Shown piece after piece: positions 24 through 64,000 of a DNA stretch of 64,000 nucleotides. The translations under genes and the position numbers were made by a program. This stretch comes from a virus. Under the pieces are notes generated by a model. The model did not search any database. It had not been told where the DNA came from and saw only the letters and a list, made by a program, of their open reading frames with translations. Positions within the stretch are counted from its first letter, which is position 1. Every line of letters begins with the position of its first letter. The DNA is taken from IMG/VR virus record IMGVR_UViG_3300045988_098681. One strand, written 5' to 3'.

Positions 24-52
24 TTGACACCACCCCAAACCTATGCTATACT
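24..52 (+). promoter_or_regulatory. sigma-70/sigma-A-type promoter (TTGACA-17-TATACT)
   Basis: TTGACA 24-29, 17-nt spacer, TATACT 47-52. It lies just upstream of the AAGGAGG RBS (61-67) and ATG 74. Confidence 0.65.
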
Positions 53-73: not shown

Positions 74-2416
74 ATGAAAACAAAAATTCATTGTAAAGTC
101 GTTCGTAACGTCTTTACAGACAACGATGGTACATTCTCAATTTATGGGTGTGTGCCATCAAAAAACGATTTAGATAAAATCCACCTCAACAAGTATGGGA
201 ACTTCACACTTAAAGGCAATTTGAGTCTACTTGAAGTTGGAGAGGACTATACTGTTGAGGTAGAAGAAAAAAGTGGCTCATACGGCTATGAGTATTGGTT
301 AGTAGGCTTTCCAGAGATAGAAGATTTTGACGTATCTAACGTTAAAGAAATCACAGATGACCAAGAAGCAGAAATGCTCAAATCTTTTATGACTCTTAGC
401 CAAGCAAAATACGTTCACGAAGCCTATCCGAACTTTATTCGTTTAGTGCTTATGGGTGAACAAGACAAGATTGATTACAAAAATATTCACAATGTAGCCG
501 AAATTCGACTCAAAGGATATATTAACAAAGTCAACGAAAGGTTCAAGTATTATAAACTTCATCTTGATAATCCACAATACGAATTATCTATAGGTGATTG
601 CTGGACGCTTTGTTCAACATATTCGACCATACAAGAGTCAAACTTGGCACTTGCGACCAAGCCTTACGAGGTGCTTATTGATGTACTTGGCAGAGGCTTT
701 CAAGAAGCCGACAGAATGATATGTGAGTACGATAACAAGTGGGGAGATTCCGAAGCAAGGTGCTTATACTTGACTTGTTACTTACTTGAGTGCAATGAGG
801 AAGATGGCAACACGAGAATCAATGGAGCGCAAATCGCTAACGTAATCAATCAATACAATCCGCAACTTAACAAGCACATAGTTGAGCTAGTGGAGAAAAG
901 TGATAAGGTTTACTATGATAAACAAACTAAGGACTTATCGTTAATGAAAACATACATTAGTGAGTGCAACATAGCTCAAACGATAAAGCAAAAGACTAAG
1001 AAGCCACAGGTGTGGAACATTGATATTGAAAAGTATCGAGTAAATGAAAATATCACACTTACTGATGAACAAATGGGCATTTTAGAGCTTGTATGTAACT
1101 ATGATTTTGCAATGCTTATGGGAAATAGCGGAAGCGGGAAATCAAGTTCTGTCAAAGCCCTTATCTCGCTCCTTGAGGACAATAACAAGTCTTACACCCT
1201 TCTTGCCCCAAGCGGAATTGCAGCCAAACGCCTTCGTGAAACAACAGGTCGCGAAGCAAGCACAATTCATAGACGTATCATGTCAAGCAACGATATTGAG
1301 AGCGATGTTGTAGTTATTGATGAGGTGTCTATGGTCGATGTTCATTTGTTCTCGACTTTACTCAATCAAATTGCAAGCTATGCAAAGATTATTCTCGTGT
1401 TCGATTCCGCTCAACTTGCCTCAATTCAATGTGGCAACTTAGTGCAAGATATGATGGATTCACACGTTGTTCCATGCGCAGAACTTACTAAGGTTTTCCG
1501 CTATGGTATCGGTGGAATTGCAACCGTTGGTGCAGATGCTAGGAACGGAAGAGAATACTTAACAAGTGATGGAGAACTTAATTGTGAAAATGCCGAGAAT
1601 ATTAAAGACTACGAGTTTATAGAGGTTAATGATGAACCGCTTGAACAAGTTATGAGTGCATATGCAAAGTTAAGAGAAAAGTACGATGTAAAAGATATTC
1701 TTGTGCTTACACCATATAACAAGGGCAATTTTGGTACTTACGCAATCAACCAAGCAATTCAAGAAAAGTACAATCCTGCTGACCCTGTTGACGATGTAGT
1801 ATCAAGAAAACTTCCACCATCACTAGGAGTTCCAATGAAAACCCTTAACTATCATATTGGCGATAAGGTTATTAACAAGAAAAATAACTATCATGCACTA
1901 ACAGATGAGGGGTTTGAACATTACTTGCAAGAACAAAAGTTAAGGCTCAAGATAGATGAATATAAAGTCAAGTTTGGGGCAAATGATGAAGGTGTTTTAG
2001 ACCTTGAGGATACACTTAGAATGATGGAAGAACAAGAGCCACCCGAAGCCACAATATATAATGGTGATATTGGGTTCATTAAACACATTGACGATAAAGG
2101 TAATGTATGGGTGCAATTTGATGAAGATATGATTGTGTGTCGTAAAAGCGACCTTGAAAACTTACTCCTTGCTTATGCCTGCACTAGCCATGCGAGCCAA
2201 GGTTGTGAAGCAAAGGGAGTTATTTTCTTAACCCACCCTAGTCAAAAGCGCATGTTGTCAAGGAACTTATGTTACATGTCGCTCACAAGAGCCAAAGAAC
2301 ACTTAATCGAGATTGGTGATATTTCAACTATCAATAATGCGCTCAAAGTCAATGAAACAAGATTGCGTTACACGTGGCTCAGGGAACTTTTGGAGGAAGA
2401 TAAAGATGTTAAATGA
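74..2416 (+). CDS. RecD-like SF1 DNA helicase
   Basis: 780-aa ORF with a strong RBS. Walker A 'GNSGSGKSS', Walker B 'VVVIDEVSMVD', and C-terminal 'AYACTSHASQGCEAKGVIFL' / 'SLTRAKE' motifs typical of RecD/TraA-type helicases. Confidence 0.85.
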   Translation: MKTKIHCKVVRNVFTDNDGTFSIYGCVPSKNDLDKIHLNKYGNFTLKGNLSLLEVGEDYTVEVEEKSGSYGYEYWLVGFPEIEDFDVSNVKEITDDQEAEMLKSFMTLSQAKYVHEAYPNFIRLVLMGEQDKIDYKNIHNVAEIRLKGYINKVNERFKYYKLHLDNPQYELSIGDCWTLCSTYSTIQESNLALATKPYEVLIDVLGRGFQEADRMICEYDNKWGDSEARCLYLTCYLLECNEEDGNTRINGAQIANVINQYNPQLNKHIVELVEKSDKVYYDKQTKDLSLMKTYISECNIAQTIKQKTKKPQVWNIDIEKYRVNENITLTDEQMGILELVCNYDFAMLMGNSGSGKSSSVKALISLLEDNNKSYTLLAPSGIAAKRLRETTGREASTIHRRIMSSNDIESDVVVIDEVSMVDVHLFSTLLNQIASYAKIILVFDSAQLASIQCGNLVQDMMDSHVVPCAELTKVFRYGIGGIATVGADARNGREYLTSDGELNCENAENIKDYEFIEVNDEPLEQVMSAYAKLREKYDVKDILVLTPYNKGNFGTYAINQAIQEKYNPADPVDDVVSRKLPPSLGVPMKTLNYHIGDKVINKKNNYHALTDEGFEHYLQEQKLRLKIDEYKVKFGANDEGVLDLEDTLRMMEEQEPPEATIYNGDIGFIKHIDDKGNVWVQFDEDMIVCRKSDLENLLLAYACTSHASQGCEAKGVIFLTHPSQKRMLSRNLCYMSLTRAKEHLIEIGDISTINNALKVNETRLRYTWLRELLEEDKDVK

Positions 2417-3005
2417 TAAGCAAAGAAAGTTCATAGAGGATAACATAAAACTCGTTTACAAGTTTTGCGCTAGGTACAACATTACTGACGAGGACGATAT
2501 TAGCGACTTTGTATGCAAGTTTTGCGAGCTTGTAGAAAGTGATGCTTACGATGAAGATAGAGGTAAATTCTCTACCTTCATTTGGGCATCGCTCAACAAC
2601 TACGCTCACTATCGCTATGAGGGTCAAAATGCCCTTAAACGTAACCTTGCCGAAGGTGAAAGATTCGTCTATTTAAACAAAATGATTGCTAATGGAAAAA
2701 GCGACAAAGAGGACGAAACAGAAATACAAGAATTGGTTCAAACTCGTAATGATTACTTTGACGAGGTTGACTTAGGCATAGCGATTGAAAAAATGCGTAA
2801 GGCAGCTAGAGAACGTGATAATAGAAAAAAGTGCAAAAGGCGCATATCAAACGAAAAAATGCTCGATATTGTTCTCTACTATTACAAACACGAGAACGGC
2901 GAAATGAATATTACAGAGGTCGCTCGTGCGCTTCATACTACAAAACAGACTGTATTTAACAATTTGCAAGAATTAAGAAAGTCGGCAAAGAGGTGTTTAG
3001 AATGA
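2406..3005 (+). CDS. sigma-70 family factor (region 2 + region 4)
   Basis: Internal ATG 2406 overlaps the helicase stop. 'NIKLVYKFCARY...RGKFSTFIWASL' resembles region 2, and the C-terminal 'MLDIVLYYY...NITEVARALHTTKQTVFNNLQELRK' is an HTH resembling region 4. Confidence 0.7.
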   Translation: MLNDKQRKFIEDNIKLVYKFCARYNITDEDDISDFVCKFCELVESDAYDEDRGKFSTFIWASLNNYAHYRYEGQNALKRNLAEGERFVYLNKMIANGKSDKEDETEIQELVQTRNDYFDEVDLGIAIEKMRKAARERDNRKKCKRRISNEKMLDIVLYYYKHENGEMNITEVARALHTTKQTVFNNLQELRKSAKRCLE

Positions 3006-3547
3006 CAAGCGAACAATCAAAATTTGCAGAAGAAAATATTCGCCTCATGTATCGCTATTTCAACATGCACAACATTACAAACGAGGACGATAAAGCAGAC
3101 TTGTTTGAATACTATTGTAAAGTAATTGAATGTTACGATGATAAAAAAGGAAAATTCAGCACCCTGCTCTATTTTTCCCTTGACAGATATCGTAGACATA
3201 TTTATAATTATAAGTATAATAAGTGTAGATTTTCTGATAAGCCGAGTATATCTTTAGACTCAACTTATGATGACGAAAACGATTGGCTACAAGAGCTAGT
3301 TTGTGAAAGGGACGTTGATATTGAGTTTGTGGAGTTCTTGGATATTTGTGAGCGTGTTTATGATAAACTTGCAACTAAGAAAAATAGTTACAATCGAAAA
3401 CTCGAAGATAGAGAACTCTTTACAATGCTCTTGGCAGGCTACACGAGAAAGGAGATTGGCAATATGTATAATATCTCACAACAAGCATTGTCTGTGAGGA
3501 TTAACAAAATTAAAGCAATTTTTTATAAGGAAATGGAGGAATGTTGA
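3002..3547 (+). CDS. sigma-70 family factor, paralog of the preceding gene
   Basis: 'ENIRLMYRYFNMH...KGKFSTLLYFSL' plus 'LLAGYTRKEIGNMYNISQQALSVRINKIK'. Same architecture as 2406-3005. The start is 2993 or 3002. Confidence 0.65.
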   Translation: MTSEQSKFAEENIRLMYRYFNMHNITNEDDKADLFEYYCKVIECYDDKKGKFSTLLYFSLDRYRRHIYNYKYNKCRFSDKPSISLDSTYDDENDWLQELVCERDVDIEFVEFLDICERVYDKLATKKNSYNRKLEDRELFTMLLAGYTRKEIGNMYNISQQALSVRINKIKAIFYKEMEEC

Positions 3548-4852
3548 TGAGAGTAGAAGAATGGCTTGGCGAAGATAATAAGATTGGGTTAGATATTTGG
3601 CACAAAAAGTATCAACATGGCAATGAGACATTCGATGAATGGCTTGATAGAGTAAGTGGAGGTGATAATGACCTAAGAGAACTCATTAAAAGTAAAAAGT
3701 TCTTATTTGGTGGCAGAGTGCTTGCGAATCGAGGTGTGCCAGATAGTGGGAATTTTTATAATTGCTTTTCTGCCGGATATGTAAAAGACGATTATGCAAG
3801 TATTATGGACGTATTAAAAGAAGTTGGTATTACGTTCAAGTATCAAGGTGGTCAAGGAATCTCCATGTCGAAACTTCGTCCAAAAGGAACAAAAATTGGC
3901 GATAATTATGAGTCAGATGGTATTGTTCCTTTTATTGAAATGTTCAATTCTGTCACTAAAGGTACTTCGCAAGGCGGTGCAAGAAAAGGTGCTTTGATGA
4001 TTAGCTTAGACATCAATCACAAAGAAGCCGAAACATTCATCAAGCTAAAAACTGATCTTGACGCTGTAACAAAAGCGAATCTCTCTATGGAAATAGACGA
4101 TGAGTTTATGACTGCGGTGCAAGAGTTCTACTATGATGGGACAATAAAAACATTACATAAGAGATACAACTACAATGGGCATGTTGTGGAATATGATATT
4201 ACGCCGATTGAATTGTATAAATTGATGATGGAAGTTGTATGGGACTACGGGGAGCCGGGGTGTATCTTTGTAGACGAATTTAGGAACAACAACTTTTTAG
4301 AGCTTGATAACGAGTATCAAATAGAAACTTGCAATCCATGCGGAGAACAACCATTAAAAGCTCGTACAAGCTGCTTGCTTGGCTCATTAAACTTATACGA
4401 GTTTGTTGAAAACAAGTTTACAAGTGATGTGTATTTTAACTTTGAGGAATTTGCAAAAGCTATTAAAGTAGCCTCAAATGCACTTGATAACATCATCGAA
4501 GAAAATGCTCCAAGGCTTCCTAAAGAACTGGAGCAATACAAACAAAACGCTTATGATTGGCGTAATATGGGGCTTGGTGTATTCAACTATGCACACATGC
4601 TCATGGCTATGGGGCTTAAATACGGTAGCGAAGAAGCGTTGGCTTTTACTGATACGCTATTTTACACTATGATGATAGAAGCCATTATATCAAATGACGA
4701 AAGGGGCAAAGAAAAGGGTAATTATCCAAAGTTCAAAGGCGGGTTAGTACAAAAGTCCACGATGTTTAGAAACCATGCCCCCGAAGAACTTTTACAAAAC
4801 GGTGCGCTACATGCTAGAAATTGCACGTTGTTATCTATCGCGCCAACTGGAT
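3547..4852 (+). CDS. nrdJ: class II (B12-dependent) ribonucleotide reductase, exon 1
   Basis: GGAGGA RBS at 3535-3540. RNR active-site motif 'CNPCGEQPL'. The ORF breaks right after 'LLSIAPTG', with a stop 3 codons later. Confidence 0.8.
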
Positions 4853-5155
4853 TAACACAATAGGTTCAGTATAAACTATTTTAATTGCTGGAAACCCCTT
4901 AGAGCTACTTAAACTACAACGTAGGTATGAAATAAAACCAAGCGTGAATGTCTGAAAATTAAGTAGATTGGGCAATCAGCAGCTAAGACTCGAATAGAGT
5001 AAAGTTCAACGACTATCCCGCAAGGGAGTACACAATAAGCAAGAAATGATTGTGGAAAAGGATAGATACTATTTATAGTATAAGATATAGTCTATTCTTA
5101 TAGGAAACTATAAGCAGTTATATAACGGCAAATGTCTTGCGAACATTTGTGAATG
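4853..5155 (+). ncRNA. group I self-splicing intron (ORF-less, ~303 nt)
   Basis: R-like core 'GTTCAACGACTAT' at 4994-5006 and S-like core 'AAGATATAGTC' at 5082-5092. A 7-bp P1 pairs exon ACTGGAT (4846-4852) with GTTCAGT (4864-4870), with U.G at the splice site. The intron ends on G5155 and the exons join in frame. Confidence 0.8.
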
Positions 5156-6171
5156 TAAAAACTATTGCAACGATGGTAAATGGCGCAGGAGGGGTTGAGC
5201 CTGAGTTTGCCTTATCCTACACTCGTAGAACAGACAATTTAGATGAATCCTACAAGATTGAGTCAAACATCGTAAAAGAATATCGTATAATCACAGGCAA
5301 CACAGGCGAGCTACCAGACTATTTTGTATCAAGCGCAGACATCCATTGGAGAGACAGAGTAAAAACGCAATCTGTCATTCAAAAACATATTGATACAGCA
5401 ATTAGCTCAACTGTCAACTTACCAAAGGAAACTACCAAAGAAGAAATCGAGGAACTATACTTATACGCTTGGATTTGTGGGTTAAAAGGAATTACAATCT
5501 TTAGAGATGGGTGCAAAAGACTTGGCATTCTCACAACACAAGAAGATGAAGCTACGCAAAGTGAAAAGCCTAAATCAGAACTCACTCGTGGAACCATTCT
5601 TTCTGTTTCCGACGACTTGATTGGCGCAAAAAGAAAATTGAATACAGGCTGTGGGTCTTTGCATTTTGAGGTATATTTTGATGAAGTGACAGGCGAACCA
5701 CTTGAAACCTTTGTAAACGTAGGCTCTAGTGGTGGATGTGAGAAAAACTTACAATTCATTTCTCGACTCATCTCACTTGCCCTTAGAGCAGGTGTATCAA
5801 TCGAGGATATTATCGACCAATGCAAGTCAATTAAACCTTGCCCTGCATATGTATCTAGGACTAATAAAAAACACGATACAAGCAAGGGATCAAGTTGTCC
5901 TAGTGCCATTGGATATGCGTTAGAGGATTTGTATGACAAAATCAAAGAACGATGCTTTGCGGATTTTGATTTAGAAGATGGTTATGTTGAACCATTGACA
6001 ATCAGTTCACCTGCAATCAAAGAATCAGATAAGGTTGTAAAAACAGGTGCAGATGGTCAAATGATTATTAAAAACTCTGATTGTATATGTCCTGAATGTG
6101 GAGAACCTTTAGTATTTGAGGGTGGTTGTAACCAATGCAAGGCTTGTGGTTTGTATAGTAATTGCGATTAA
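5156..6171 (+). CDS. nrdJ: class II ribonucleotide reductase, exon 2
   Basis: Continues '..(L)KTIATMVNGAGGVEPEFALSYTRR..'. C-terminal CxxC...CxxC zinc ribbon 'CPECGEPLVFEGGCNQCKACG'. Confidence 0.8.
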
Positions 6172-50239: not shown

Positions 50240-50314
50240 TGGCATACCTACTACGAATCGAACATAGATATACGGTTTTGGAGACCGCTGTTTTCCCAAT
50301 TAAACTATAGGCAC
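50240..50314 (-). tRNA. tRNA-Trp: tRNA-Trp (anticodon CCA), CCA-encoded
   Basis: Cloverleaf folded by eye: acceptor GTGCCTA/TAGGTAT, D stem GTTT/AAAC, anticodon stem GCGGT/ACCGT with loop CTCCAAA, T arm CTATG-TTCGATT-CGTAG. Confidence 0.75.
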
Positions 50315-50377
50315 ATATCAGATGAGTTAAGTTTCTCTAACTCACCAAGTACGCATCCGAAAACACATACCCCAATT

Positions 50378-50740
50378 TTAAAATAATTCTTGTTCAGTTA
50401 TTCCAATATTTTCTTCTGTATATGGTAAAAACAAATGACCAAATCTACCACGCACTTCTCCATTATCTTTTGGAAATCTTAAAAAATGTTTGTAATCTGT
50501 TAATAGCTTAGGACAATTTTTTTCTACCCACTGTTTAGTTGCAGTAATACAATAATCCGAAGACGTATCTACAAAATTAAATACTACAAATACTACACAT
50601 AATTTATTTTCTTTTACCCAATCTTCATTGTCAAATGGAATTTTTAAATTGTCTTCAAACCATGTGATAAAAGGTTCATCATCAGGAAAATCTCTTTCTA
50701 AAAACCAATTATTTAATTCAAAATAAATTATATTTTCCAT
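50378..50740 (-). CDS. hypothetical protein
   Basis: 120-aa ORF between tRNA genes. Confidence 0.5.
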   Translation of the reverse strand: MENIIYFELNNWFLERDFPDDEPFITWFEDNLKIPFDNEDWVKENKLCVVFVVFNFVDTSSDYCITATKQWVEKNCPKLLTDYKHFLRFPKDNGEVRGRFGHLFLPYTEENIGITEQELF

Positions 50741-50770
50741 TACACCGTCCTAAACTTTCTATAAATTTAA

Positions 50771-50847
50771 TGGTGATGCCACCGAGGCTCGAACTCGGAC
50801 TTTTCAGCTTGAAAGGCTGATGTGTTAACCAGTTACACTATGGCACC
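50771..50847 (-). tRNA. tRNA-Glu: tRNA-Glu (anticodon UUC), CCA-encoded
   Basis: Acceptor GGTGCCA/TGGCATC, anticodon stem TCAGC/GCTGA with loop CTTTCAA, T arm CCGAG-TTCGAGC-CTCGG. Confidence 0.8.
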
Positions 50848-50925
50848 ATACGAAGAAAGTATAATAGATAATTTCTAAAATTTGTATTAAATCCCACAAT
50901 AAGAAATTATCAAACATAAAGGGAT

Positions 50926-51002
50926 TGGCGGGACATCTAGGATTCGAACCTAGAATCTTGCGGTTAACAGCCGCCTGCTCTAACCAGCTGAGCTAATGTC
51001 CC
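50926..51002 (-). tRNA. tRNA-Asn: tRNA-Asn (anticodon GUU), CCA-encoded
   Basis: Acceptor GGGACAT/ATGTCCC, D arm GCTC-AGCTGGTTA-GAGC, anticodon loop CTGTTAA, T arm CTAGG-TTCGAAT-CCTAG. Confidence 0.85.
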
Positions 51003-51300
51003 ATATGGATGCAGGTACTCGACACTCCCCTTAGCTAAATCAAAGGATTTTAGGTGGCGATAGTTCAATAACTTATTTGCCTAACATGTGCAAACAAGTT
51101 TATTCATGCTCAGCCACCTAGAACTTTCATTAAGAAAAATTGTTGGAAACGACAGGACTCGACGTTACGTTCAACTAAAAAAAGTTGATTCCTTATTCAT
51201 CGTGCTCTGTTTTGCCGAAGCTATTCCAGTTGGTATAGCACTCCAAAGGCTTAAATTCCCATGTAGCGATTTGGTACATATATGTAGTCACTTCTAGTTG
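51003..51300 (-). ncRNA. putative TnpB omega RNA (reRNA) / transposon right-end region
   Basis: ORF-free 3' flank of tnpB. Nested stems TAGGTGGC/GCCACCTA (51051-51058/51113-51120) and CTTATTTGC/GCAAACAAG (51072-51080/51090-51098). The single non-Watson-Crick pair is A-C on the + strand and G-U on the - strand. Confidence 0.4.
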
Positions 51301-52425
51301 TTAAACTACATATTTCATTAAATTGATTGCTGCGTTGTAATCACGATCTATTACGGGACCGCATTCTGGACAGACGTAGATTCTGTCGCTGAGCTTTAGG
51401 TTTGACTTAATCGTTCCGCAACAAGAACATGTTTTGGAAGAAGGGCAGAACCGATCTACCTGTACGAACTCGATCCCATTCCACTCACACTTGTATTTCA
51501 TCTGACGAACAAACTCATAAAAGCATTGTTCCTGAATTACTTTTGACAGGTGTTTATTCTTCATCATTCCAGACACATTAAGGTTCTCCATGACGACCCG
51601 ATATGGACGCATAAATACGAGTTTATGTGTTGCTTGATGAATATGATTTTGTCTTGTCATTGAAATGTGATAGGAAAGTTCTCGAATTTGTTCTTCGACT
51701 TTAAGAATATTAGCCGTCTTTTCAAAATTACCATTTTGATAATACTTACGAGAAACTTTACGTTGAAGGCGCTTCAATTTCTTTTGCTTTTTCTTCATGT
51801 TGGAAGTTTTGTTAATGTTCTTAATGACAATATTTTCATCGCCAAAAGCTACACTACAAAGCGCTTTGATTCCAAGGTCAATACCCATGGACTTATTTGT
51901 CAGCTCCAATACTTGGTTCTCACACTCAAAGCCAACTGTTAAAATCCATTTCTTATTGACATATGATATTCTTGGATTGTAAAATTTTGCTTCTTTTCCT
52001 AGTGGGACATTGTAGTTTGTCCGATATTTTACTTTACCGAGCTTTGGAATTGTTACAGATTCTTCGGTAAAGTAAGTTCCATCGTTTCTGATTGGATAAT
52101 TAGGTTTCGATTTCTTTTTACTTTTAAATTTAGGAAAACCTGCGCCACGAAAAAAGTTTGAATATGCTTTATCAAGGTCTCTTAATGTTGTTACCAAGCT
52201 CGCATTTAAAACTTCATTAAGCCAAGCATATTGTTCTTCTTTTTTCAATGGAGTGAGTTTCTTGATAAGATCAAAAGATGATAATTTCTTGCCGATGGAA
52301 GAGTATTCCACTTTTTGAATCTCTAATCCCCAATTCCAGATAAACCTACAACACCCAATGTGTTTCCACATCAATTCTTCCTGCTCCTTAGTTGGGAGCA
52401 GTCTGATCTTGTACGTTTTCATCAT
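51301..52425 (-). CDS. tnpB: TnpB (IS200/IS605-family RuvC-like RNA-guided nuclease); no tnpA nearby
   Basis: N-terminus 'YKIRLLPTKEQEELMWKHIGCCRFIWNWGL', RuvC D 'GIDLGIKALCSVA', E 'VVMENLNVSGM', zinc finger 'CSCCG..CPECG', final 'IDRDYNAAINL'. Strong AAGGAGGT RBS. Confidence 0.85.
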   Translation of the reverse strand: MMKTYKIRLLPTKEQEELMWKHIGCCRFIWNWGLEIQKVEYSSIGKKLSSFDLIKKLTPLKKEEQYAWLNEVLNASLVTTLRDLDKAYSNFFRGAGFPKFKSKKKSKPNYPIRNDGTYFTEESVTIPKLGKVKYRTNYNVPLGKEAKFYNPRISYVNKKWILTVGFECENQVLELTNKSMGIDLGIKALCSVAFGDENIVIKNINKTSNMKKKQKKLKRLQRKVSRKYYQNGNFEKTANILKVEEQIRELSYHISMTRQNHIHQATHKLVFMRPYRVVMENLNVSGMMKNKHLSKVIQEQCFYEFVRQMKYKCEWNGIEFVQVDRFCPSSKTCSCCGTIKSNLKLSDRIYVCPECGPVIDRDYNAAINLMKYVV

Positions 52426-53530
52426 TTACCTCCTTTTCTTTAAGATTTTATGAAAAGGAGAGTGGCGGGAACTTACCCCGCACATGCGTTTCTCTCTTGT
52501 TGAATATATGAGCGAGACTTTGGGAACCGTTTTTACCTATCGACATCAGCATAGTGGTATTCAACGTTATCGAGTATGCTCCCGCCTTGCCATCTTCCAA
52601 TGACTGAAAATCTCGCAGAAATCTTAAGTTATTTTACTAAGCTAAACAACTAAATAACATGTGCCATGAACCTTCGTTCTACCTTCCACAATCATCGTCA
52701 TATTCAACCAGTAAGTAGACAAGTCTGTGCCACAGGGAGCTACCCTATGACATCTTGCCTAGATGGAAACCATCAAATCTTACAAGGGGCTCTTTCTACC
52801 CTTAACTTTCACAAAGCATTCAGAATTATTTTCTTCAAATCTTCATCATTTGACATCATTTGACTTGTAAAATTACTACAGTCATTGCTTTTTGCTACTC
52901 GTACCTTGACCCTATCTTATACTTTGTCTTTCGACAATCTCACAGCAAACTTCCTTAGTGGCACTTCCGTACTTATGCCGCTTGCCACAGCGACACAGCC
53001 CTCGGATTCGGCTTACGCTTTTAACGCTTAGCTTCTATTGTGGAAGCGATAGGACAGTGTTTTTAACAAGGATTGCTTTAGCACACACCCCCAGAACCAT
53101 TCTATTCATAAGTGGCATCTTGCATCTCACAATGCAAGCCTTTGACCGTTACCAAAGCTATCGTTTTGGCTAGGCTATTCTTACCCGCAGGTGGGTAGTG
53201 TTCTCTGCACCATGCTCTTGGTCTACACAGAGTTATGGCACACATTATTTAGTTGTCTAAAAATGGCTACGGGATTGAGTACCGCCCTCAACAATAGTCG
53301 GGTCAAAGCCGACTGCGTTCACTTGTTCGCCATCCCGCAATATTTGGTTGGTATACGATTGAAACCATATACCAACCGTAAGGAAAAAAATATGAAAAAA
53401 GCGTTTTTCTTTTTTATTGTGGCGCACCAAATAAATTTTATGGATGTCCTTTTAGGAGGTAAAACACAAAAAACAGAAAGGTTGGTTTTAGGTGCGCCAC
53501 TCGAATATTTTGTTGTTTTCTCTCTTTACA
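52426..53530 (-). ncRNA. candidate large structured non-coding RNA (class unassigned)
   Basis: ~1.1 kb downstream of a perfect consensus promoter with no ORF >=60 aa on the transcribed strand. Many stems: 53419-53428/53491-53500 (10 bp), 53346-53355/53368-53377 (10 bp), 53296-53301/53309-53314, 53119-53125/53132-53138, 52958-52963/52983-52988, and GTC-GAAA-GAC at 52926-52935 (GNRA only on the - strand). Confidence 0.35.
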
Positions 53531-54723: not shown

Positions 54724-54914
54724 TAGTTCACCTGTTCCGAGATAAACGAAACTTGCATACCTTCCATATCTCTAAGCATTTCTTCAACGCTAACAACAAT
54801 CGGTTCTTCGTCTTTCTTATCATAAACCTCTACAACAAAGTCACCGTTATCATTTCTTGTTAAGTAGCCAATAACCTTGGTGGTTGTAATGCGACTATAT
54901 GTATCCTTCATCAT
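54723..54914 (-). CDS. hypothetical protein
   Basis: 63-aa ORF coupled on both sides. Confidence 0.45.
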   Translation of the reverse strand: MMKDTYSRITTTKVIGYLTRNDNGDFVVEVYDKKDEEPIVVSVEEMLRDMEGMQVSFISEQVN

Positions 54915-55285
54915 TCATCGTCCTCCTCATAATTGTCTGGTTTAAAAAGCGGGTTCCCCCATGTTTGTTCCATCATCTCACTTCTAAATTGTTGTGAAAT
55001 TAAGAATTGTGGAATATTGTGTTCAAGACGCTCACGACTCAAACTCAACTCACCATTAAGACTTACATTTGGCATATATCTTGGTTTTTTATATGGTCTG
55101 TATTTGAGCGTAAGAGTTCCAACTTTTTGCAAGCACACCTCTCTGCCCGATAATAAACATTCCCTTATCACATGAATGTAGTTTTCTATGATTTCTCTAC
55201 ATTCCTTTTGCGAATACCCAGACAATTCAGAAACTACTCGAACGATATCACCTTGTTTCATTTTAGGTACGTTGTATCCTTTCAT
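54911..55285 (-). CDS. HU/IHF-like DNA-binding protein
   Basis: 'DIVRVVSELSGYSQKECREIIENYIHVIRECLLSGREVCLQKVGTLTLKYR' follows the HU helix-helix-beta-arm pattern. Confidence 0.5.
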   Translation of the reverse strand: MKGYNVPKMKQGDIVRVVSELSGYSQKECREIIENYIHVIRECLLSGREVCLQKVGTLTLKYRPYKKPRYMPNVSLNGELSLSRERLEHNIPQFLISQQFRSEMMEQTWGNPLFKPDNYEEDDE

Positions 55286-56117: not shown

Positions 56118-56381
56118 CTCTGGCTCTTTATCCAGAGCTTCTTTAAGTTTCCTTAAAGTATCGGACTATATCTTCACCATGCACTTTCGTGTTTAGGTGT
56201 TCAGCACTCGTGGGGGGATTATTGCTAGTTCTGCTCACCCCCTAGTCTCTGAGCCTTCCTATCTACTAAATGAACCTCGATAGGTTTGGCATATGGTTAG
56301 CATATGCTTTTGCACTTAGCTTTCCACTATTCACTGAATATTTTTTACTAAATGTTTCCACTTAGCTGACCCATTTTACTA
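56118..56381 (-). ncRNA. group I self-splicing intron (ORF-less, ~264 nt; boundaries approximate)
   Basis: On the - strand: an R-like 'GGCTCAGAGACTAG' (56242-56255), an S-like 'AAGATATAGTCC' (56163-56174), then a CTTTAAG-GAAA-CTTAAAG hairpin (P9-like) and a GCTCT..AGAGC hairpin before the proposed 3' splice site. Confidence 0.7.
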
Positions 56382-58337
56382 AGCCACTACACTCAGAATA
56401 CACACATAATCATCATACTCTTTGTCTGTAAAACTATATCCATAAGTCAACGCAAGCTGCGCAAGATTACTAGACTCACCTATTGCCATTTGTGCTTTGG
56501 CAAGGTTGTTGTCTATAACGGCGTGATTGTACATGGATAAGTCATAATGATTTTTTTCTTTTGGAATGTTGTTTACAATGGTTGGATGGTTTATGTAGCA
56601 ATATTTGGCGTAGTCGGCAATGTCATGTTGATTTGTTACAAATACTTGGTCAGAATCCCAGTCGCAGCCATTTAGTCGGTCTTGGACATCTGTGTGTTTG
56701 CAATTCATTGCAATACATTGCTCCCCAATATAAAAATATTTATCTAAAATATCGCTCTTAATATTTTTAAGTCCAATAATATTCGACTTACTATTGTGCG
56801 GGCTTCTAAATCCTGCTAAATACTCGTTTGCTCCAAACCTCTTTGTGTAACATTGAATACAATCCTGCTCTTGACCAAACGTATTGTCTTTTTCTACATC
56901 TTCACCCACACTATGTAATAACATGGCATAAGGAGAGCCAACCATTACTAAGTTATCACCCTCTTGCAACACTTTACCAAACTTTAGATTTTTTACATAA
57001 CCATCAATTATTTTTTTCTTCCTGCTCCTAAAATACTCACTTCGCACAAATTCTGAATCCTGCTCGCACAATGCGACCAAAACCTCGTAGTCATTAGAAA
57101 AGTTCTCATTGTCTCTAAGGTAGTCAAGGAACACATCATTGTCACTCTTTAGTTGTTCAACATACGATTTGCTTCTTGCAAGCACACCATCCATAATTTC
57201 AACATCAAGTGTGTTTATCATTTGGTAACTCATACGTTGAACGTCACCGTATTTGCTCTTGTGTGCAGTTTTAACTATTCCAAATTGACAATCATTCTCA
57301 TGGACTTTCTTACACCAATAGTCATACGATACGTCGAATTTTAACCACTTCATGGAATTATCTGTGGTTATCATCTTGATATCTTTTACATAGTGTTCAT
57401 TGCCCCACATATCGACAACTTTTGCACTTTTGTACTCATCGCCATACCAATCCCTAAAGAACCGTTGTATGTTCGTGTGAAAAGCAGCACACTTTGTCAT
57501 ATGATGTCTTAGTAATACATACCCCTCTCCCCACTTGGGAAAAATCGAATCGTCTATCAAGGCTTGCCCATCGAACAAGGTGTTTTTTAATTCGTAGTCT
57601 TGTATTCGCTTTGCATAACAATGTTTTTTTCCATCAATGCCAATACTCACTACTTCACGCCTAAAAAAACTATCCACATCTTTTAGTATCAATATATTTT
57701 CCGGCTCAATCCTCATGCGTCCAACTATCGTGCTTGCGATGAGTGACACATATGCACTTGCTTCTACTATCGGCGCATTATGCTTTGGAATCTTTAACCC
57801 CATATAAATAAAGTCGTGGGCTTTTTTATAGAGCCTAGAACAAATAAACATAACAGAACCTTGCTTCGCCTTGCCAGCAGAACGATAAAGCATTTTATAG
57901 TGTATTGTTTCTGTTTTCTTTATATTTCCTGCTTTGTCTTTGGTATGATATTTAATATTTATTCCATGTTCGTAATATTCAATTCGTATATCTTCTTTTC
58001 GCTTCTTGACGTACTTATCTCTATTTTCGTCTACTTTATTTAGTAAAAATTCTAATCTCTTTATTTTCTCCTCATCGTCAATTTCTTTTATCTTATTTAC
58101 AATGTTGCCCCTCGTGTCCTCATAACTCTTAGCTCCCATGTCAAAATTCAAGCATATTACATCTCTAGTGAAACCGTTCTTCGACACTTTAAGTCCATTT
58201 TCTAACAAGAAGTCTAAGAAGAGGCTATTTGTCAACATGGCATTAGTATATGGCAGATAATCTCTTGCGCCAAGATTATATTCATATAGTTGTCCTGCCG
58301 AAAAGTTCTTTATTCGTACACCATATTTATTCGTCAT
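56382..58337 (-). CDS. YonO/RdRP-like two-barrel RNA polymerase candidate, exon 1
   Basis: 'GFRSPHNSKSN...(~40 aa)...LNGCDWDSDQVFV' matches the 'RSP.H...GGD.DGD' spacing of the catalytic double-psi beta-barrel in QDE-1/YonO-type polymerases. The ATG at 58337 is preferred over the GTG at 58349. Confidence 0.5.
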
Positions 58338-58338
58338 T

Positions 58339-58509
58339 TTACCACTCACCCCATTGAAATCTTACACACTCATTATAATTAAAGTATCTATATAAAAAAT
58401 CATATTCTTGTTCTTTGTATTCTCTATTTAATCGTTCCTTTTGTGATAAAATGGGATAAACATGGTGACTCATTTCTTCCCAATAATCTTCTTTATCCCT
58501 ATACTCCAT
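58339..58509 (-). CDS. small hypothetical protein (56 aa; below the track cutoff)
   Basis: GGAGGAG RBS and ATG 58509. Stop overlaps the start of the next gene (TAAAATG). Confidence 0.4.
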   Translation of the reverse strand: MEYRDKEDYWEEMSHHVYPILSQKERLNREYKEQEYDFLYRYFNYNECVRFQWGEW

Positions 58510-58589: not shown

Positions 58590-58618
58590 TTGACTTTTAA
58601 CATAACTTATTGTATAAT
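58590..58618 (+). promoter_or_regulatory. sigma-70-type promoter (TTGACT-17-TATAAT)
   Basis: TTGACT 58590-58595, 17-nt spacer, TATAAT 58613-58618, then an AGAGG RBS and ATG 58637. Confidence 0.65.
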
Positions 58619-58636
58619 AAACCAAGAGGTGTTAAA

Positions 58637-59617
58637 ATGAAAGAATTTGAGTTAAAAGAAAAGATAAAAAACCTTGAACGAAAATTGGAACAATATGAGT
58701 TAGAATCGATTGGAATCTATGCGCCAAAACATGCGCTCAATACAAGATCTGAATTTGGAGAGGCAATTAGACAAAACCTAAAAGAACAACGCGAGTGCAG
58801 CAAAGTTAAAAATTTGTTCACCACAACAGGCACAATTCAAAGTATCCTTGTGCAAAACTTTAACTTTGAGTGTTCTGAAATCATAAGAAAGCTCAACGGC
58901 TACAACTTGCAAAGCGCAAAGTTAAAAATTCAAGAAAAAGCGAATAATATGCTAGATGTATGTGACGAATATGGCATTTTAGTGAGCAATCACAATTTAT
59001 TCAACCTCAAAATTGAACAAGCCGAACTTGAAAACGACTACTTGTTATTCCAAGCAGAAGAAAGATATAGAAAGCAAGAACAAGCTCGCAAAATAGCCGA
59101 ACAACGCAAAGCCGACAAAGAATGGTTCGATAGGTTGGTGGAATTAGAGAAAAGAATCCAAGAAAGTATATCTAATGGCGATATTGAGGAAACTGAACGA
59201 TTGCAAGAAGAAGCCAATCAAACACGCCATTTACTCAAAGAAAAGAAAGCAGGTTGGGTATATATCATCAGCAACGAAGATATGCACAATGGATACTATA
59301 AAGTTGGAACAACGCGAAGAATCTCGCCCCTTGTAAGAATAGACGAACTTTCAGACGCAAGCCATGCTTTCAAGTTTAGGATTCATGCGCTCATATATTC
59401 TGAAGATTGTTTTGACTTAGAATCAAGATTGCACAGAAGATTGACAAACTATCGAGTAAACAAAGAAAATCTACATAAAGAATTCTTTGAAATTGACCTT
59501 GAAGAATTACAAATTATCTTGCTTGATGAATTTGGTATTGATGTAGAAATGAATGAAAATATTTACGAGGACGATGAAAAACTCAATGCGCTCTACTCAT
59601 TTATTTACGATAAATAG
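58637..59617 (+). CDS. DUF4041-like coiled-coil + T5orf172 (GIY-YIG superfamily) domain protein
   Basis: C-terminal 'GWVYIISNEDMHNGYYKVGTTRRISPLVRIDEL...ESRLHRRLTNYRVNKENLHKEFFEI' matches the T5orf172/MUG113 pattern. Long N-terminal coiled coil. Confidence 0.7.
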   Translation: MKEFELKEKIKNLERKLEQYELESIGIYAPKHALNTRSEFGEAIRQNLKEQRECSKVKNLFTTTGTIQSILVQNFNFECSEIIRKLNGYNLQSAKLKIQEKANNMLDVCDEYGILVSNHNLFNLKIEQAELENDYLLFQAEERYRKQEQARKIAEQRKADKEWFDRLVELEKRIQESISNGDIEETERLQEEANQTRHLLKEKKAGWVYIISNEDMHNGYYKVGTTRRISPLVRIDELSDASHAFKFRIHALIYSEDCFDLESRLHRRLTNYRVNKENLHKEFFEIDLEELQIILLDEFGIDVEMNENIYEDDEKLNALYSFIYDK

Positions 59618-62621: not shown

Positions 62622-63130
62622 TTCACACCTCCTTCCACAATGGTTATTATATGTATTTCTAATCAAATTGTCAATCATTTTTTTTATTTTTATCCACTTT
62701 ACTTTGCTAAAGTTTTTGACTATTGACTAAAAATTCTCTAAGCTACTTCCGTATAGATGTTTGTAGGTTTTTTAGTCAAAACTTACAACCACCTATCGTC
62801 TTCACTCATGCCCTACATGAGCGACAAGGGTTTCCGTTCGCTACGCTTACTGCACCTTGACCAGCCACTAACGTGTCTCACTTCGCACGTTGCTTGCTTA
62901 ATCTTGCTACGCAATCTTTTCGCATCGCTGCCTTAGCTCGTTTAGCTCACTTGTTTCTACTAATTTGTTCCTTAAAGCAACTCGAACTATCATATTGTAA
63001 CTTAATGTTTCTTGGTGGCTCAATGATCTATGGCTTATTGTATATATAATAAATATAAGTTAATTGGTTATAGCCATGAGTGAGCAGGGGCTCACATTGC
63101 GCATTCCATTGCTTACGCAATTCCATGCGT

Positions 63131-63212
63131 TTGATTAAATTAAATTAAGTACCGTTCACTTACGTTCACTATCTTTCGCTACGCTCAAGATTACTTAATT
63201 TAATTTAATCAA
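63131..63212. repeat. perfect 21-bp inverted repeat with 40-nt spacer
   Basis: TTGATTAAATTAAATTAAGTA (63131-63151) and TACTTAATTTAATTTAATCAA (63192-63212). The spacer contains the direct repeat CGTTCACT x2. Confidence 0.85.
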
Positions 63213-63384
63213 TCTGGATGAACAGAAAAAGTGTGGGGAATGAAACATGACGCTCAAATAGATTGTATGATTGTATTAGTTAAGTAATACAGTTAGAATC
63301 AAAGTGATATCATGGAGAATACACACGAAAAGTGTGGGGTGGTTTCTATGTAGTTTTGAAAACTATGTAGAGTGGTTAAAGTGA

Positions 63385-63990
63385 CTAGGTGTGGTAGTTA
63401 TGGAAGCTAAATTGTGCATAAAATGTGGTGATTTTTGCAAGTGGGTGGGAAAAATTGGTGAATAGTGGTGGGGAGTGGGGAGAGATGGGAAAATTTGGTT
63501 GGGGAATTGGGGGAGTGGCGGGAAGGTTGAAATTGGTGGGGTTTGAGGTTAAGGTGGGTGGAGTGGGGGTGCTACGACGCAAACGTTTGTGGTAGGAAAT
63601 CCCATTTTTGGAAAATACCCCCACCTATGGCAGAACGTGGAAATAGGGATGTTTGGTGTTGGTAAAATATTCCATCTAATAGCATGTATAATGTGCATTA
63701 TATATGAAAAAAACTGGAAAACGTTGGAATTTCAACGTTTGTAAGCCCTTTGCACATTTGGGAGGGATTGACATTTGCCCGTTTAGATGCCTGCAAGCGT
63801 TGAAATTAAAACGTTTCGCATTAACGGGGTGAAACGTCCACCCTCCCAAAACCCAAACCACAAACCACATGCCGCCACCCCTCACATTTTCACACTTAAC
63901 CCCTCTTCCCGCTCCCATAACCCCATCACCTAGTATTCAATACTACATGCAGCACAAAAAAAATAGGGCTAACACCCACCAAAAAACACA
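63385..63990. other. mirrored strand-composition block: C-depleted G/T-rich arm, central AAACGTT palindromes, G-depleted C/A-rich arm
   Basis: 63421-63570 contains only about two C's. ~63838-63930 contains only about three G's. AAACGTT(T)-type palindromes at 63581, 63719, 63734 and 63809. Confidence 0.8.
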
Positions 63991-64000
63991 AAAAAAAAAG

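What the first reader, a model, noticed from the sequence alone, without database searches (positions are those of the whole stretch)
63385..64000. Mirrored G-rich / C-rich arms flanking a cluster of AAACGTT palindromes (origin- or terminus-like)
About 240 nt are almost devoid of C and rich in GG/GGG/GGGG runs. A ~200-nt core follows, with four AAACGTT(T)-type palindromic sites (63581, 63719, 63734, 63809). Then ~150 nt are almost devoid of G and rich in CCC runs, leading into the early promoter at window position 24. The arms are loosely reverse-complementary: GGGAGTGGCGGGAAGG on the left versus the reverse complement GGGAGCGGGAAGAGG on the right. Such a switch in strand composition around protein-binding palindromes is what one expects at a replication origin, a packaging or terminal region, or a G-quadruplex/R-loop-prone control region. 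It is not explained by any gene.
Basis: seen in the sequence. Interest (0 to 1): 0.65.

Follow-up and report, generated by a model that had tools for sequence, protein, structure and literature searches.

The report
Conserved strand-skewed non-coding phage DNA element
A roughly 600-base gene-free stretch of a 103-kb gut phage has an invariant AT-rich palindrome flanked by a C-free arm and a G-free arm, kept across all relatives found, so it is a real DNA control site (perhaps a replication origin) whose function is still unproven.

Summary
The G-rich arm (63439-63571) has 1 C in 133 nt. The C-rich arm runs 63839-63948. Four of the window's 20 AACGTT sites lie in the 276-nt core.

One premise is wrong. 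The window is a slice of a ~103-kb phage genome, so base 64000 does not join base 1. Past 64000 lie a terminator and another minus-strand gene.

The element sits in a 1.4-kb untranslated gap between the first leftward operon and a consensus promoter. The same layout recurs in 12 related sequences, in relatives whose neighbouring gene is only 44% identical. The shared layout is:
- a C-poor arm ending in the invariant GAGTGGGGGTGCTAC;
- an invariant AT-rich palindrome;
- hairpins;
- a G-poor arm that varies freely in sequence and length.

The AACGTT palindromes are specific to the window's sub-lineages; the most distant relatives carry other hairpins or inverted repeats there. The arms match each other only as far as composition predicts.

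My best reading is a protein-assembly and DNA-opening site, most likely a replication origin (confidence about 0.35). The rivals are a divergent G-less transcript or Rho-type insulator, a T5 iss-like DNA-end signal, and a large RNA. None is tested.

The parts
63131..63212 (.). Long hairpin or cruciform in the same untranslated region. It has a 21-bp perfect stem and a 40-nt loop carrying two copies of GTTCAC plus CGCTACGC. It lies outside the finding's coordinates.
   Evidence: I3. The stem stays perfect through compensatory changes in four sequence versions across lineages.
63345..63407 (.). Left boundary inverted repeat, ATGTAGTTTTGAAAACTA...TAGGTGTGGTAGTTATGGAAGC. It contains the palindrome TCTATGTAGTTTT-G-AAAACTATGTAGA.
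   Evidence: I1, I5, I13. Conserved in close relatives.
63439..63571 (+). G-rich, C-free arm with 11 runs of three or more G. It ends in the invariant GAGTGGGGGTGCTAC.
   Evidence: Measured in 10 of the 12 related sequences it is 132-178 nt, 41-57% G, with 1-6 C; in L354 and L371 the automatic measure returned only 49 and 88 nt because a C interrupts the arm. The end motif is invariant in 10 of 10 aligned lineages.
63562..63626 (.). Invariant stem GTGGGGGTG / TACCCCCAC. It encloses a CTAC...GTAG hairpin (which holds the AAACGTTT site at 63581) and the motif CCATTTTTGGAAAATACCCCC.
   Evidence: The pairs are invariant in 10 of 10 lineages, so covariation cannot be assessed.
63683..63713 (.). Centre of the element: the AT-rich palindrome CATGTATAATGTGCATTATATATG followed by an A7 run. 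It carries back-to-back TATAAT hexamers on the two strands, and neither has a -35 hexamer.
   Evidence: It is the most conserved block in all lineages. Two independent contigs of one lineage end exactly at its axis.
63719..63816 (.). A 28-nt inverted repeat (63719-63746 and 63789-63816) carrying three of the AACGTT sites, around a 42-nt spacer. The left arm is the 20-nt palindrome AACGTTGGAATTTCAACGTT.
   Evidence: (I2, D4). It is replaced by AAATTGTACT...AGTACAAATT in L341 and by AACTGTACTA-GCTAGA-TAGTACAGTT in L336.
63827..63843 (.). Small hairpin GGGTG-AAACGTC-CACCC at the junction of core and C arm, just after the conserved GCATTAACGG.
   Evidence: L341 has a compensatory version, GGGCG...CGCCC.
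63839..63910 (+). Hypervariable C-rich, G-poor arm, including tandem AAACCAC heptamers at 63849-63869.
   Evidence: The heptamer array is about three copies here, absent in L004 and L005, and expanded to about five in L236. Measured from just after the TAAC motif to the right boundary, the G-poor arm is 62-174 nt in the relatives and stays G-poor.
63911..63948 (.). Right boundary inverted repeat, GCTCCCATAACCCCATCACCTAGTATTCAATACTACAT. It contains the palindrome TAGTATT-C-AATACTA (63931-63945).
   Evidence: I1, I5. Conserved in all lineages that reach it.
63953..64000 (-). A-rich tail. Positions 63990-63999 are the T-run of the intrinsic terminator of the upstream minus-strand operon. Its stem lies just past the window end.
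   Evidence: L003 6325-6360, 16-pair stem followed by a T-run.
62646..62674 (-). Consensus sigma-70-type promoter (TTGACA-17-TATAAT) that restarts leftward transcription into the 337-aa gene. It marks the far end of the 1.4-kb untranslated region.
   Evidence: L003 7678-7706, 12 of 12 matches.

Best explanation
The finding is the central module of a 1.4-kb untranslated region in a ~103-kb phage, probably of gut Clostridia. This region separates the first leftward operon (eight small genes ending in a terminator) from a consensus promoter.

I read the module as a cis-acting DNA site where proteins assemble and the duplex opens, most likely a replication origin.

Proposed mechanism (inferred, not shown):
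1. The invariant AT-rich palindrome at 63683-63713 is the melting or recognition site.
2. Going outward from it, the strand that runs 5'->3' is G-free on both sides. A 5'->3' helicase or other single-strand motor leaving the centre would therefore travel on structure-free DNA.
3. The displaced strands are C-free and G-run-rich. They could fold into quadruplexes, or hold G-rich RNA as an R-loop, and so keep the bubble open.
4. The hairpins and boundary palindromes would act as architectural or protein-binding sites.

What is shown: the element exists, it is non-coding, and it is under strong selection. For the arms, that selection acts on composition rather than on sequence.
For: - The composition is far outside the rest of the window, and the arms are the only sizeable G4-prone stretches in it.
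- The architecture recurs in 12 related sequences, including relatives whose flanking 337-aa gene is only 57% and 44% identical.
- The core is nearly invariant while the neighbouring proteins diverge.
- Arm changes, indels and heptamer copy-number changes all preserve C-poverty on the left and G-poverty on the right.
- The AT-rich palindromic centre is the most conserved block.
- The element is non-coding: Rfam finds nothing, and 1-nt indels fall inside the mechanical ORFs.
- The window-type 20-nt palindrome occurs in many unrelated phages between arrays of phage-specific repeats next to replication or early genes. In some bacteria it lies between DnaA boxes.
- The adjacent 337-aa protein models as repeated helix-strand units. 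It belongs to an uncharacterised phage family, so a DNA-binding role is only a weak hint.
Against: - No known initiator gene is adjacent.
- G-runs show no helical periodicity or regular iterons.
- DnaA boxes do not exceed chance.
- Cumulative skew follows gene orientation, and the strand switch is about 3 kb away.
- The local polarity is the reverse of the usual leading-strand G excess.
- No convincing inward promoters were found for an R-loop model.
- The distant Enterocloster phages have no such element.
- The wide spread of the AACGTT hairpin is partly what any terminator-like stem would show.
Confidence: 0.35

Rival explanations
1. Divergent transcription unit or transcriptional insulator. 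The two back-to-back TATAAT hexamers in the central palindrome would fire outward. Each RNA would start with a structured segment and continue as a long G-less, C-rich tail. That tail could act as a Rho-loading (rut-like) terminator, giving lambda-style delayed-early control. Alternatively it could be a C-rich regulatory RNA that pairs with G-rich ribosome-binding sites.
For: - TATAAT on both strands is invariant in all lineages.
- Outward RNAs would be G-free for about 45-190 nt on both sides. From my own knowledge, this is the defining composition of rut sites and of the C-rich seed regions of Firmicutes small RNAs.
- The element lies between a terminator and a promoter.
- The hairpin at 63719-63740 is followed by a T-run on the minus strand.
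- Hairpin function is conserved while hairpin sequence is not.
Against: - Neither -10 box has a -35 hexamer or an extended -10, whereas the phage's clear promoters are full consensus.
- A perfect promoter already sits in front of the next gene.
- The rightward RNA would only be antisense to a terminator.
- No covariation supports structured RNA segments.
Confidence: 0.25
2. DNA-end, DNA-entry or packaging signal. Options are an injection-stop site like T5 iss, a terminal-repeat boundary, or a cleavage site at the axis of the AT palindrome. In that case the arms are sub-terminal repeats whose G-rich strand runs 5'->3' toward the end, a telomere-like polarity.
For: - The position and anatomy match T5 iss: a 1.2-1.7-kb untranslated block of nested repeats and palindromes after the first small genes, better conserved than the neighbouring ORFs (Davison, bioRxiv 10.1101/866236).
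- Two independent assemblies of the 57% lineage, a 60,481-nt scaffold and a 5,518-nt MEGAHIT contig, end at the identical base on the palindrome axis. A third ends 25 nt short.
- The G-rich strands point 5'->3' at the centre from both sides.
- A heptamer array varies in copy number.
Against: - At least 11 other contigs read straight through the site, including 100-kb contigs with different start points. This fits circular or terminally redundant assembly.
- T5 iss is defined by paired DnaA boxes, which are absent here.
- The central palindrome (24 nt, imperfect) is too short for a hairpin-telomere resolution site.
- No terminase or protelomerase gene is adjacent.
- Strain variation could also break the assemblies at this point.
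Confidence: 0.2
3. One large non-coding RNA on the plus strand. Its G-rich 5' arm and C-rich 3' arm would zip together around a structured core.
For: - Any G-rich arm pairs strongly with any C-rich arm (duplex energies of -73 to -111 kcal/mol).
- Several predicted pairs are G-U on the plus strand only.
- The plus strand folds better than the minus strand (-77 against -62 kcal/mol).
- The phage already carries ROOL and RAGATH-18 RNAs.
Against: - Arm pairing is no better than in shuffled arms.
- The C arm shrinks to a short CA-rich stretch without C runs in L354 and L371.
- No plus-strand promoter is conserved.
- The alignment folds show almost no compensatory changes.
- No Rfam family matches.
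Confidence: 0.08
4. A mobile or invertible segment bounded by the inverted repeats at 63348-63407 and 63911-63948. It would be either an inverton flipped by a recombinase or a miniature transposon.
For: - The outer boundaries are a true inverted repeat of about 40 nt, and each contains a small palindrome TAGTWTT-N-AAWACTA.
- The composition pattern is unchanged by inversion.
Against: - All 12 related sequences have the segment in the same orientation and the same genomic place.
- No recombinase was detected among the ten flanking genes scanned.
- No copies occur elsewhere in the window.
Confidence: 0.05

Closest known systems
Phage and plasmid replication origins with an AT-rich unwinding element flanked by protein-binding repeats (lambda ori, SPP1 oriL, iteron plasmids), and R-loop/G-block origins (ColE1 RNA II, T4 oriF/oriG, mitochondrial CSB II). 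Comparison from my own knowledge.
   Same: - It is non-coding, strongly conserved, and has an AT-rich centre with palindromes.
- Repeated short G-rich words (GTGGGG, GGTGGG) lie on both sides in inverted orientation.
- The G-rich non-template blocks could stabilise R-loops or quadruplexes.
   Different: - The repeats are not regularly spaced.
- One arm is conserved only in composition.
- No recognisable initiator gene, DnaA boxes or inward promoters were found.
- It does not lie at the genome's strand-switch point.
Bacteriophage T5 injection stop signal region (Repeat Region 3 of the left terminal repeat; Davison, bioRxiv 10.1101/866236)
   Same: - It is an untranslated block of 1.2-1.7 kb placed after the first small genes.
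[quoted passage not shown]
- It is better conserved than the neighbouring ORFs.
- Its function is cis-acting and still unproven.
   Different: - T5 iss is marked by eight paired DnaA boxes and lies inside a 10-kb terminal repeat of a Gram-negative phage.
- Here there are no DnaA boxes, the terminal structure is unknown, and the hallmark is mirrored strand composition.
Rho-utilisation (rut) sites and lambda-type promoter-nut-terminator modules (from my own knowledge)
   Same: - Outward RNAs would carry C-rich, G-free, unstructured tracts of 80 nt or more.
- Hairpins precede those tracts.
- The element sits between an early operon and the next block of genes.
   Different: - No promoter has been demonstrated at the centre.
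- No antiterminator has been identified.
- The symmetry would send one RNA backward into a terminator.
Intrinsic-terminator-type hairpins (for the AACGTT palindrome itself)
   Same: - The same 20-nt palindrome follows tRNA genes, with G/C clamps and a T-run, in Anaerovoracaceae-type genomes.
- Related AAACGTTG-N6-CAACGTTT hairpins follow integrase genes in streptococcal prophages.
   Different: - In the window the two copies form one 28-nt inverted repeat inside a conserved core.
- T-runs are weak on the plus strand.
- Relatives use unrelated hairpin sequences at this position.

Membership tests
Iteron-type or DnaA-type replication origin | Array of initiator-binding repeats with a conserved sequence and regular, helically phased spacing | tested here: not met
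   G-run spacings are irregular (4-23 nt) and autocorrelation is weak. Short words recur, but the right arm is conserved only in composition.
Iteron-type or DnaA-type replication origin | AT-rich unwinding element next to the repeats | tested here: met
   The invariant AT-rich palindrome plus A-run at 63683-63713 lies between the arms.
Iteron-type or DnaA-type replication origin | DnaA boxes, or an adjacent initiator gene | tested here: not met
   Only two one-mismatch DnaA boxes occur in 1.3 kb against 0.64 expected. Neighbouring proteins have no Pfam or PHROG function. The 337-aa protein has no significant PDB fold match.
Iteron-type or DnaA-type replication origin | Actual initiation of DNA synthesis at the site | not testable with these tools
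   This needs marker-frequency data, 2D gels or plasmid-replication assays.
R-loop or G-quadruplex-primed origin (ColE1, T4 oriF/G, mitochondrial CSB) | G-rich RNA-like strand downstream of a promoter that transcribes into the block | tested here: inconclusive
   The G-rich blocks have the right polarity for inward transcription. The only inward promoter-like sites either abut a terminator or are not conserved.
T5-type injection stop signal | Large untranslated repeat and palindrome block after the first genes, conserved above the neighbouring ORFs | tested here: met
   compared.
T5-type injection stop signal | Paired DnaA boxes inside inverted repeats, and a location within a long terminal repeat | tested here: not met
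   There are no DnaA-box pairs. The terminal repeat cannot be assessed from the assemblies.
Rho-dependent terminator (rut) | C-rich, G-poor, unstructured tract of about 80 nt or more in the transcript | tested here: met
   This holds for RNAs leaving the centre in either direction.
Rho-dependent terminator (rut) | The tract is transcribed, and termination depends on Rho | not testable with these tools
   No expression data are available, and no full promoter was found at the centre.
Hairpin-telomere resolution site (telRL type) | Long (about 50 bp or more), near-perfect palindrome with an adjacent protelomerase gene | tested here: not met
   The central palindrome is 24 nt and imperfect. Adjacent genes show no such domain.
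Described RNA families (Rfam 15) | A covariance-model match | tested here: not met
   Only a chance-level microRNA hit appears in the gap, at E = 0.4.
G-quadruplex-forming sequence | Four or more runs of three or more G with short loops, and a G4Hunter score of 1.5 or more | tested here: met
   There are 11 runs in 135 nt. G4Hunter reaches 1.5-2.0 on the plus strand at 63455-63577 and on the minus strand at 63897-63932. Actual folding was not tested.

The most novel reading that the evidence does not exclude
A previously undescribed kind of cis-acting phage DNA element in which the selected property is mirrored strand composition rather than sequence. Outward-running strands are kept G-free, and inward-running strands are kept C-free and quadruplex-prone, around an invariant AT palindrome. 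This compositional design would itself drive origin opening, or would mark telomere-like physical ends cut at the palindrome axis.
Probability: 0.2. Interest if true: 0.8.

Novelty: new variant of a known kind. Interest (0 to 1): 0.55.

Why it matters
Large gut phages of Clostridia are abundant, yet their replication origins, genome ends and early-to-middle switches are essentially unmapped.

This element is easy to recognise and is conserved across a whole clade. More than 90 variants of a neighbouring protein exist in public assemblies. The element therefore gives a concrete site for testing where DNA synthesis, entry or packaging is controlled.

If selection really acts on strand composition, with G-free tracks and G4-prone displaced strands, that would be a design principle not described for bacterial viruses. 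It would link phage biology to the G-rich origin and telomere elements of eukaryotes.

Tried and rejected
1. Treating the window as circular. Rejected: contigs show a methyltransferase gene before base 1, and a terminator and gene after base 64000.
2. Looking for close phages in GenBank. None match at the DNA level. Enterocloster phages are only distant relatives and lack the element.
3. Known RNA families. None match.
4. Specific pairing of the arms. It is no better than shuffles. Alignment folds show invariant stems but almost no covariation.
5. The AACGTT palindrome as a universal protein-binding site. It occurs in about 80 unrelated phage and bacterial contexts: between iterons, between DnaA boxes, and after tRNA and integrase genes. 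However, its centre varies when left free, such stems are expected among terminators, relatives of this phage replace it, and no paper contains the sequence. It therefore does not define the element.
6. Homology of the flanks of those palindromes to the window. None beyond the palindrome itself.
7. DnaA boxes and helical periodicity. Both negative.
8. Function of the neighbouring proteins by Pfam, PHROGs, structure prediction and fold search. They belong to uncharacterised families.
9. More evidence for contig ends at the palindrome axis. Two further look-ups were uninformative.

Full report
**What is there**

- Positions 63439-63571 contain one C in 133 nt at about 50% G. They include the longest and third-longest C-free runs of the whole 64-kb window.
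- Positions 63839-63990 are the mirror image, C-rich with few G.
- Over 135 nt, G minus C reaches +69 and -48 here, against +33 and -33 anywhere else.
- Apart from a 37-nt stretch near 38.0 kb, the only segments with a G4Hunter score of 1.5 or more are these two arms, on opposite strands.
- Four of the window's 20 AACGTT hexamers fall in the 276-nt core, where 0.09 are expected.

The window is not a circle.
- Contigs encoding the exact helicase of window 74-2416 show that base 1 lies in the last codons of an N6/N4 methyltransferase gene. Upstream are DNA polymerase III alpha, RecJ and other replication genes, in genomes of about 102.8 kb.
- A contig identical to the window's right end continues past 64000 into a strong intrinsic terminator on the minus strand, and then a 151-aa gene.
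- The finding therefore lies in a 1.4-kb untranslated gap (about 62622-64033) between two minus-strand transcription units.
- Upstream of the gap are eight small genes that begin at the genome's strand-switch point, about 3 kb to the right.
- Downstream of the gap is a perfect TTGACA-17-TATAAT promoter at 62646-62674, followed by a 337-aa gene.
- Large-scale GC skew simply follows gene orientation.

**Anatomy**

- The arms pair with each other no better than composition-matched shuffles do (z from -2.9 to +0.2).
- The outer edges, 63348-63407 and 63911-63948, are a genuine inverted repeat. Each edge holds a small palindrome TAGTWTT-N-AAWACTA.
- Three of the four AACGTT sites belong to one 28-nt inverted repeat (63719-63746 and 63789-63816) around a 42-nt spacer.
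- The centre is the AT-rich palindrome CATGTATAATGTGCATTATATATG plus an A-run (63683-63713).
- The end of the G arm, GTGGGGGTG, is complementary to TACCCCCAC about 50 nt further on.
- Further left in the same gap is a 21-bp perfect stem with a 40-nt loop carrying GTTCAC repeats (63131-63212).

**Relatives**

- GenBank phages hold no DNA match. Public assemblies hold many.
- Close relatives came from IMG/VR and a metagenome scan.
- More distant relatives came through homologues of the 337-aa protein, down to 44% identity, and of a 194-aa early protein with more than 90 variants.
- The layout recurs in 12 related sequences:
  1. a C-poor G-rich arm with 41-57% G and 1-6 C, 132-178 nt in 10 of the 12 (the automatic measure was cut short by an internal C in L354 and L371), ending in the invariant GAGTGGGGGTGCTAC;
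  2. CCATTTTTGGAAAnTACCCCC;
  3. the invariant AT palindrome;
  4. one or more hairpins;
  5. GCATTAACGG plus a small hairpin that shows a compensatory change;
  6. a G-poor arm;
  7. the CTAGTWTTCAATACTA palindrome;
  8. the upstream terminator.
- The core is far better conserved than the neighbouring proteins.
- The G-poor arm is free in sequence and length. Measured from just after the TAAC motif it is 62-174 nt, and its AAACCAC heptamer array is about three copies in the window, absent in L004 and L005, and expanded to about five in L236. In one lineage (L354, L371) it is only CA-rich. It stays G-poor throughout.
- The long stem at 63131-63212 stays perfect through compensatory changes in four sequence versions.
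- Single-base indels and inconsistent gene calls show that the two mechanical ORFs in the region are not genes.

**The AACGTT palindrome**

- The 20-nt palindrome AACGTTG(A/G)AATT(T/C)CAACGTT occurs exactly in 110 viral contigs and in more than 120 bacterial loci. These form about 80 unrelated contexts.
- In phages it usually sits between arrays of phage-specific repeats at module boundaries, next to replication or early genes.
- In bacteria, mostly of the Anaerovoracaceae type, it follows tRNA genes like a terminator. In several loci it lies between DnaA boxes.
- That looked like strong support for an origin. Three results weaken it:
  - With the centre left free, the same stems turn up with many AT-rich loops. 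In streptococcal prophages these lie just past the integrase stop, as terminators would.
  - In relatives of this phage the AACGTT hairpins are replaced by unrelated hairpins or inverted repeats.
  - No flanking homology links the other loci to the window.
- The palindromes are therefore lineage-specific hairpins, not the defining part of the element.
- A CG-to-TG variant also sits in this phage's divergent early region.

**Function**

Nothing here measures function. What is shown is selection on three things: the AT palindrome and adjacent motifs, hairpins as structures, and strand composition.

The composition rule can be put simply. Leaving the centre in either direction, the 5'->3' strand has no G and the opposite strand has no C.

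I rank four readings.
1. **Origin-like DNA-opening site (0.35).** It has an AT-rich centre. It offers structure-free tracks for outward 5'->3' motors. Its displaced strands are prone to quadruplexes or R-loops. It is non-coding and highly conserved. Against it: no initiator gene, no DnaA boxes, no regular iterons and no inward promoters.
2. **Divergent G-less transcripts or a Rho-type insulator (0.25).** TATAAT is invariant on both strands and the outward RNAs are rut-like. Against it: no -35 elements, whereas the phage's real promoters are full consensus.
3. **DNA-end, entry or packaging signal (0.20).** It resembles the still-unexplained T5 iss region in position, size, nested repeats and conservation. 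Two independent contigs of one lineage end at the same base on the palindrome axis. Against it: many contigs read through, and paired DnaA boxes, the hallmark of T5 iss, are absent.
4. **A large RNA (0.08), or an invertible or mobile segment (0.05).** Both have little support.

The neighbouring 337-aa protein gave a medium-confidence model (pLDDT 75) made of repeated helix-strand units. It has no significant match to any solved structure, and its only confident matches are uncharacterised phage proteins.

**Verdict**

The interpretation 'origin- or terminus-like control region' remains the leading class of explanation but is unproven. The element is unusual in that one of its main conserved properties is mirrored strand composition. 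I rate it as a new variant of a known kind (a phage cis-acting control region), of moderate to high interest, and readily testable.

Noticed in passing
window 52649-53256 (-): A full-length ROOL RNA (Rfam RF03087, 269.5 bits against a gathering score of 99). It lies next to a TnpB/IS605 OrfB gene and tRNA genes.
   Followed up: no
window 51189-51249 (-) and 51301-52425 (-): A RAGATH-18 RNA (63 bits) directly downstream of a 374-aa OrfB_IS605/Cas12f-like TnpB gene. It is probably that gene's guide-RNA end.
   Followed up: no
window 4817-5114 (+) and 56141-56390 (-): Two group I introns. The first splits the ribonucleotide reductase large-subunit gene (ORFs 3541-4863 and 5137-6171). A 65-nt piece of it (4969-5033) is the only DNA match to GenBank phages (Enterocloster phages, 89.6% identity). 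The second abuts the 656-aa ORF at 56379-58349.
   Followed up: partly
window 50240-51002 (-): Three tRNA genes (Trp, Glu, Asn) clustered beside the RNA genes.
   Followed up: no
window 63131-63212: A 21-bp perfect A/T-rich stem around a 40-nt loop with two GTTCAC copies and CGCTACGC. The stem is kept perfect by compensatory changes in four versions across lineages. CGCTACGC-like words recur at 62846, 62912 and 63176.
   Followed up: partly
L003 3140-3285 (about window-equivalent 67,070-67,210, beyond the window): The phage's divergent early region holds a variant palindrome, AACATTGAAATTTCAATGTT. It also holds the motif GCGTTTTAAGCGACTTTTTTT...TATACC, which recurs beside the AACGTT palindrome in unrelated phage and bacterial loci (L016, L073, L090, L109, L136, L159, L160). 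This may be a promoter-leader or small-RNA module.
   Followed up: partly
loci L006-L235 (IMG/VR and GTDB genomes): The exact 20-nt palindrome AACGTTG(A/G)AATT(T/C)CAACGTT is shared by about 80 unrelated contexts: between phage iterons, after tRNA genes, and between DnaA boxes in Anaerovoracaceae-type Clostridia and in Bifidobacterium. No paper in the library contains the sequence.
   Followed up: partly
L333 and L334, base 1 (57%-identity lineage): Two independent assemblies end at exactly the same nucleotide, on the axis of the central AT palindrome. A third ends 25 nt short.
   Followed up: partly
window 24-52 (+): A consensus-like promoter, TTGACA-17-TATACT, lies in front of the RecD/Dda-like helicase gene. 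Its spacer, CCACCCCAAACC, resembles the C-arm words. The promoter sits at the end of a methyltransferase gene, not next to the finding.
   Followed up: partly
window 58610-59617 (+) and 54911-55285 (-): A T5orf172/MUG113-type putative homing endonuclease sits on the opposite strand within the leftward block. An HU-like (Bac_DNA_binding) protein gene is also present. Sigma-like factors are encoded at 2313-3547.
   Followed up: no
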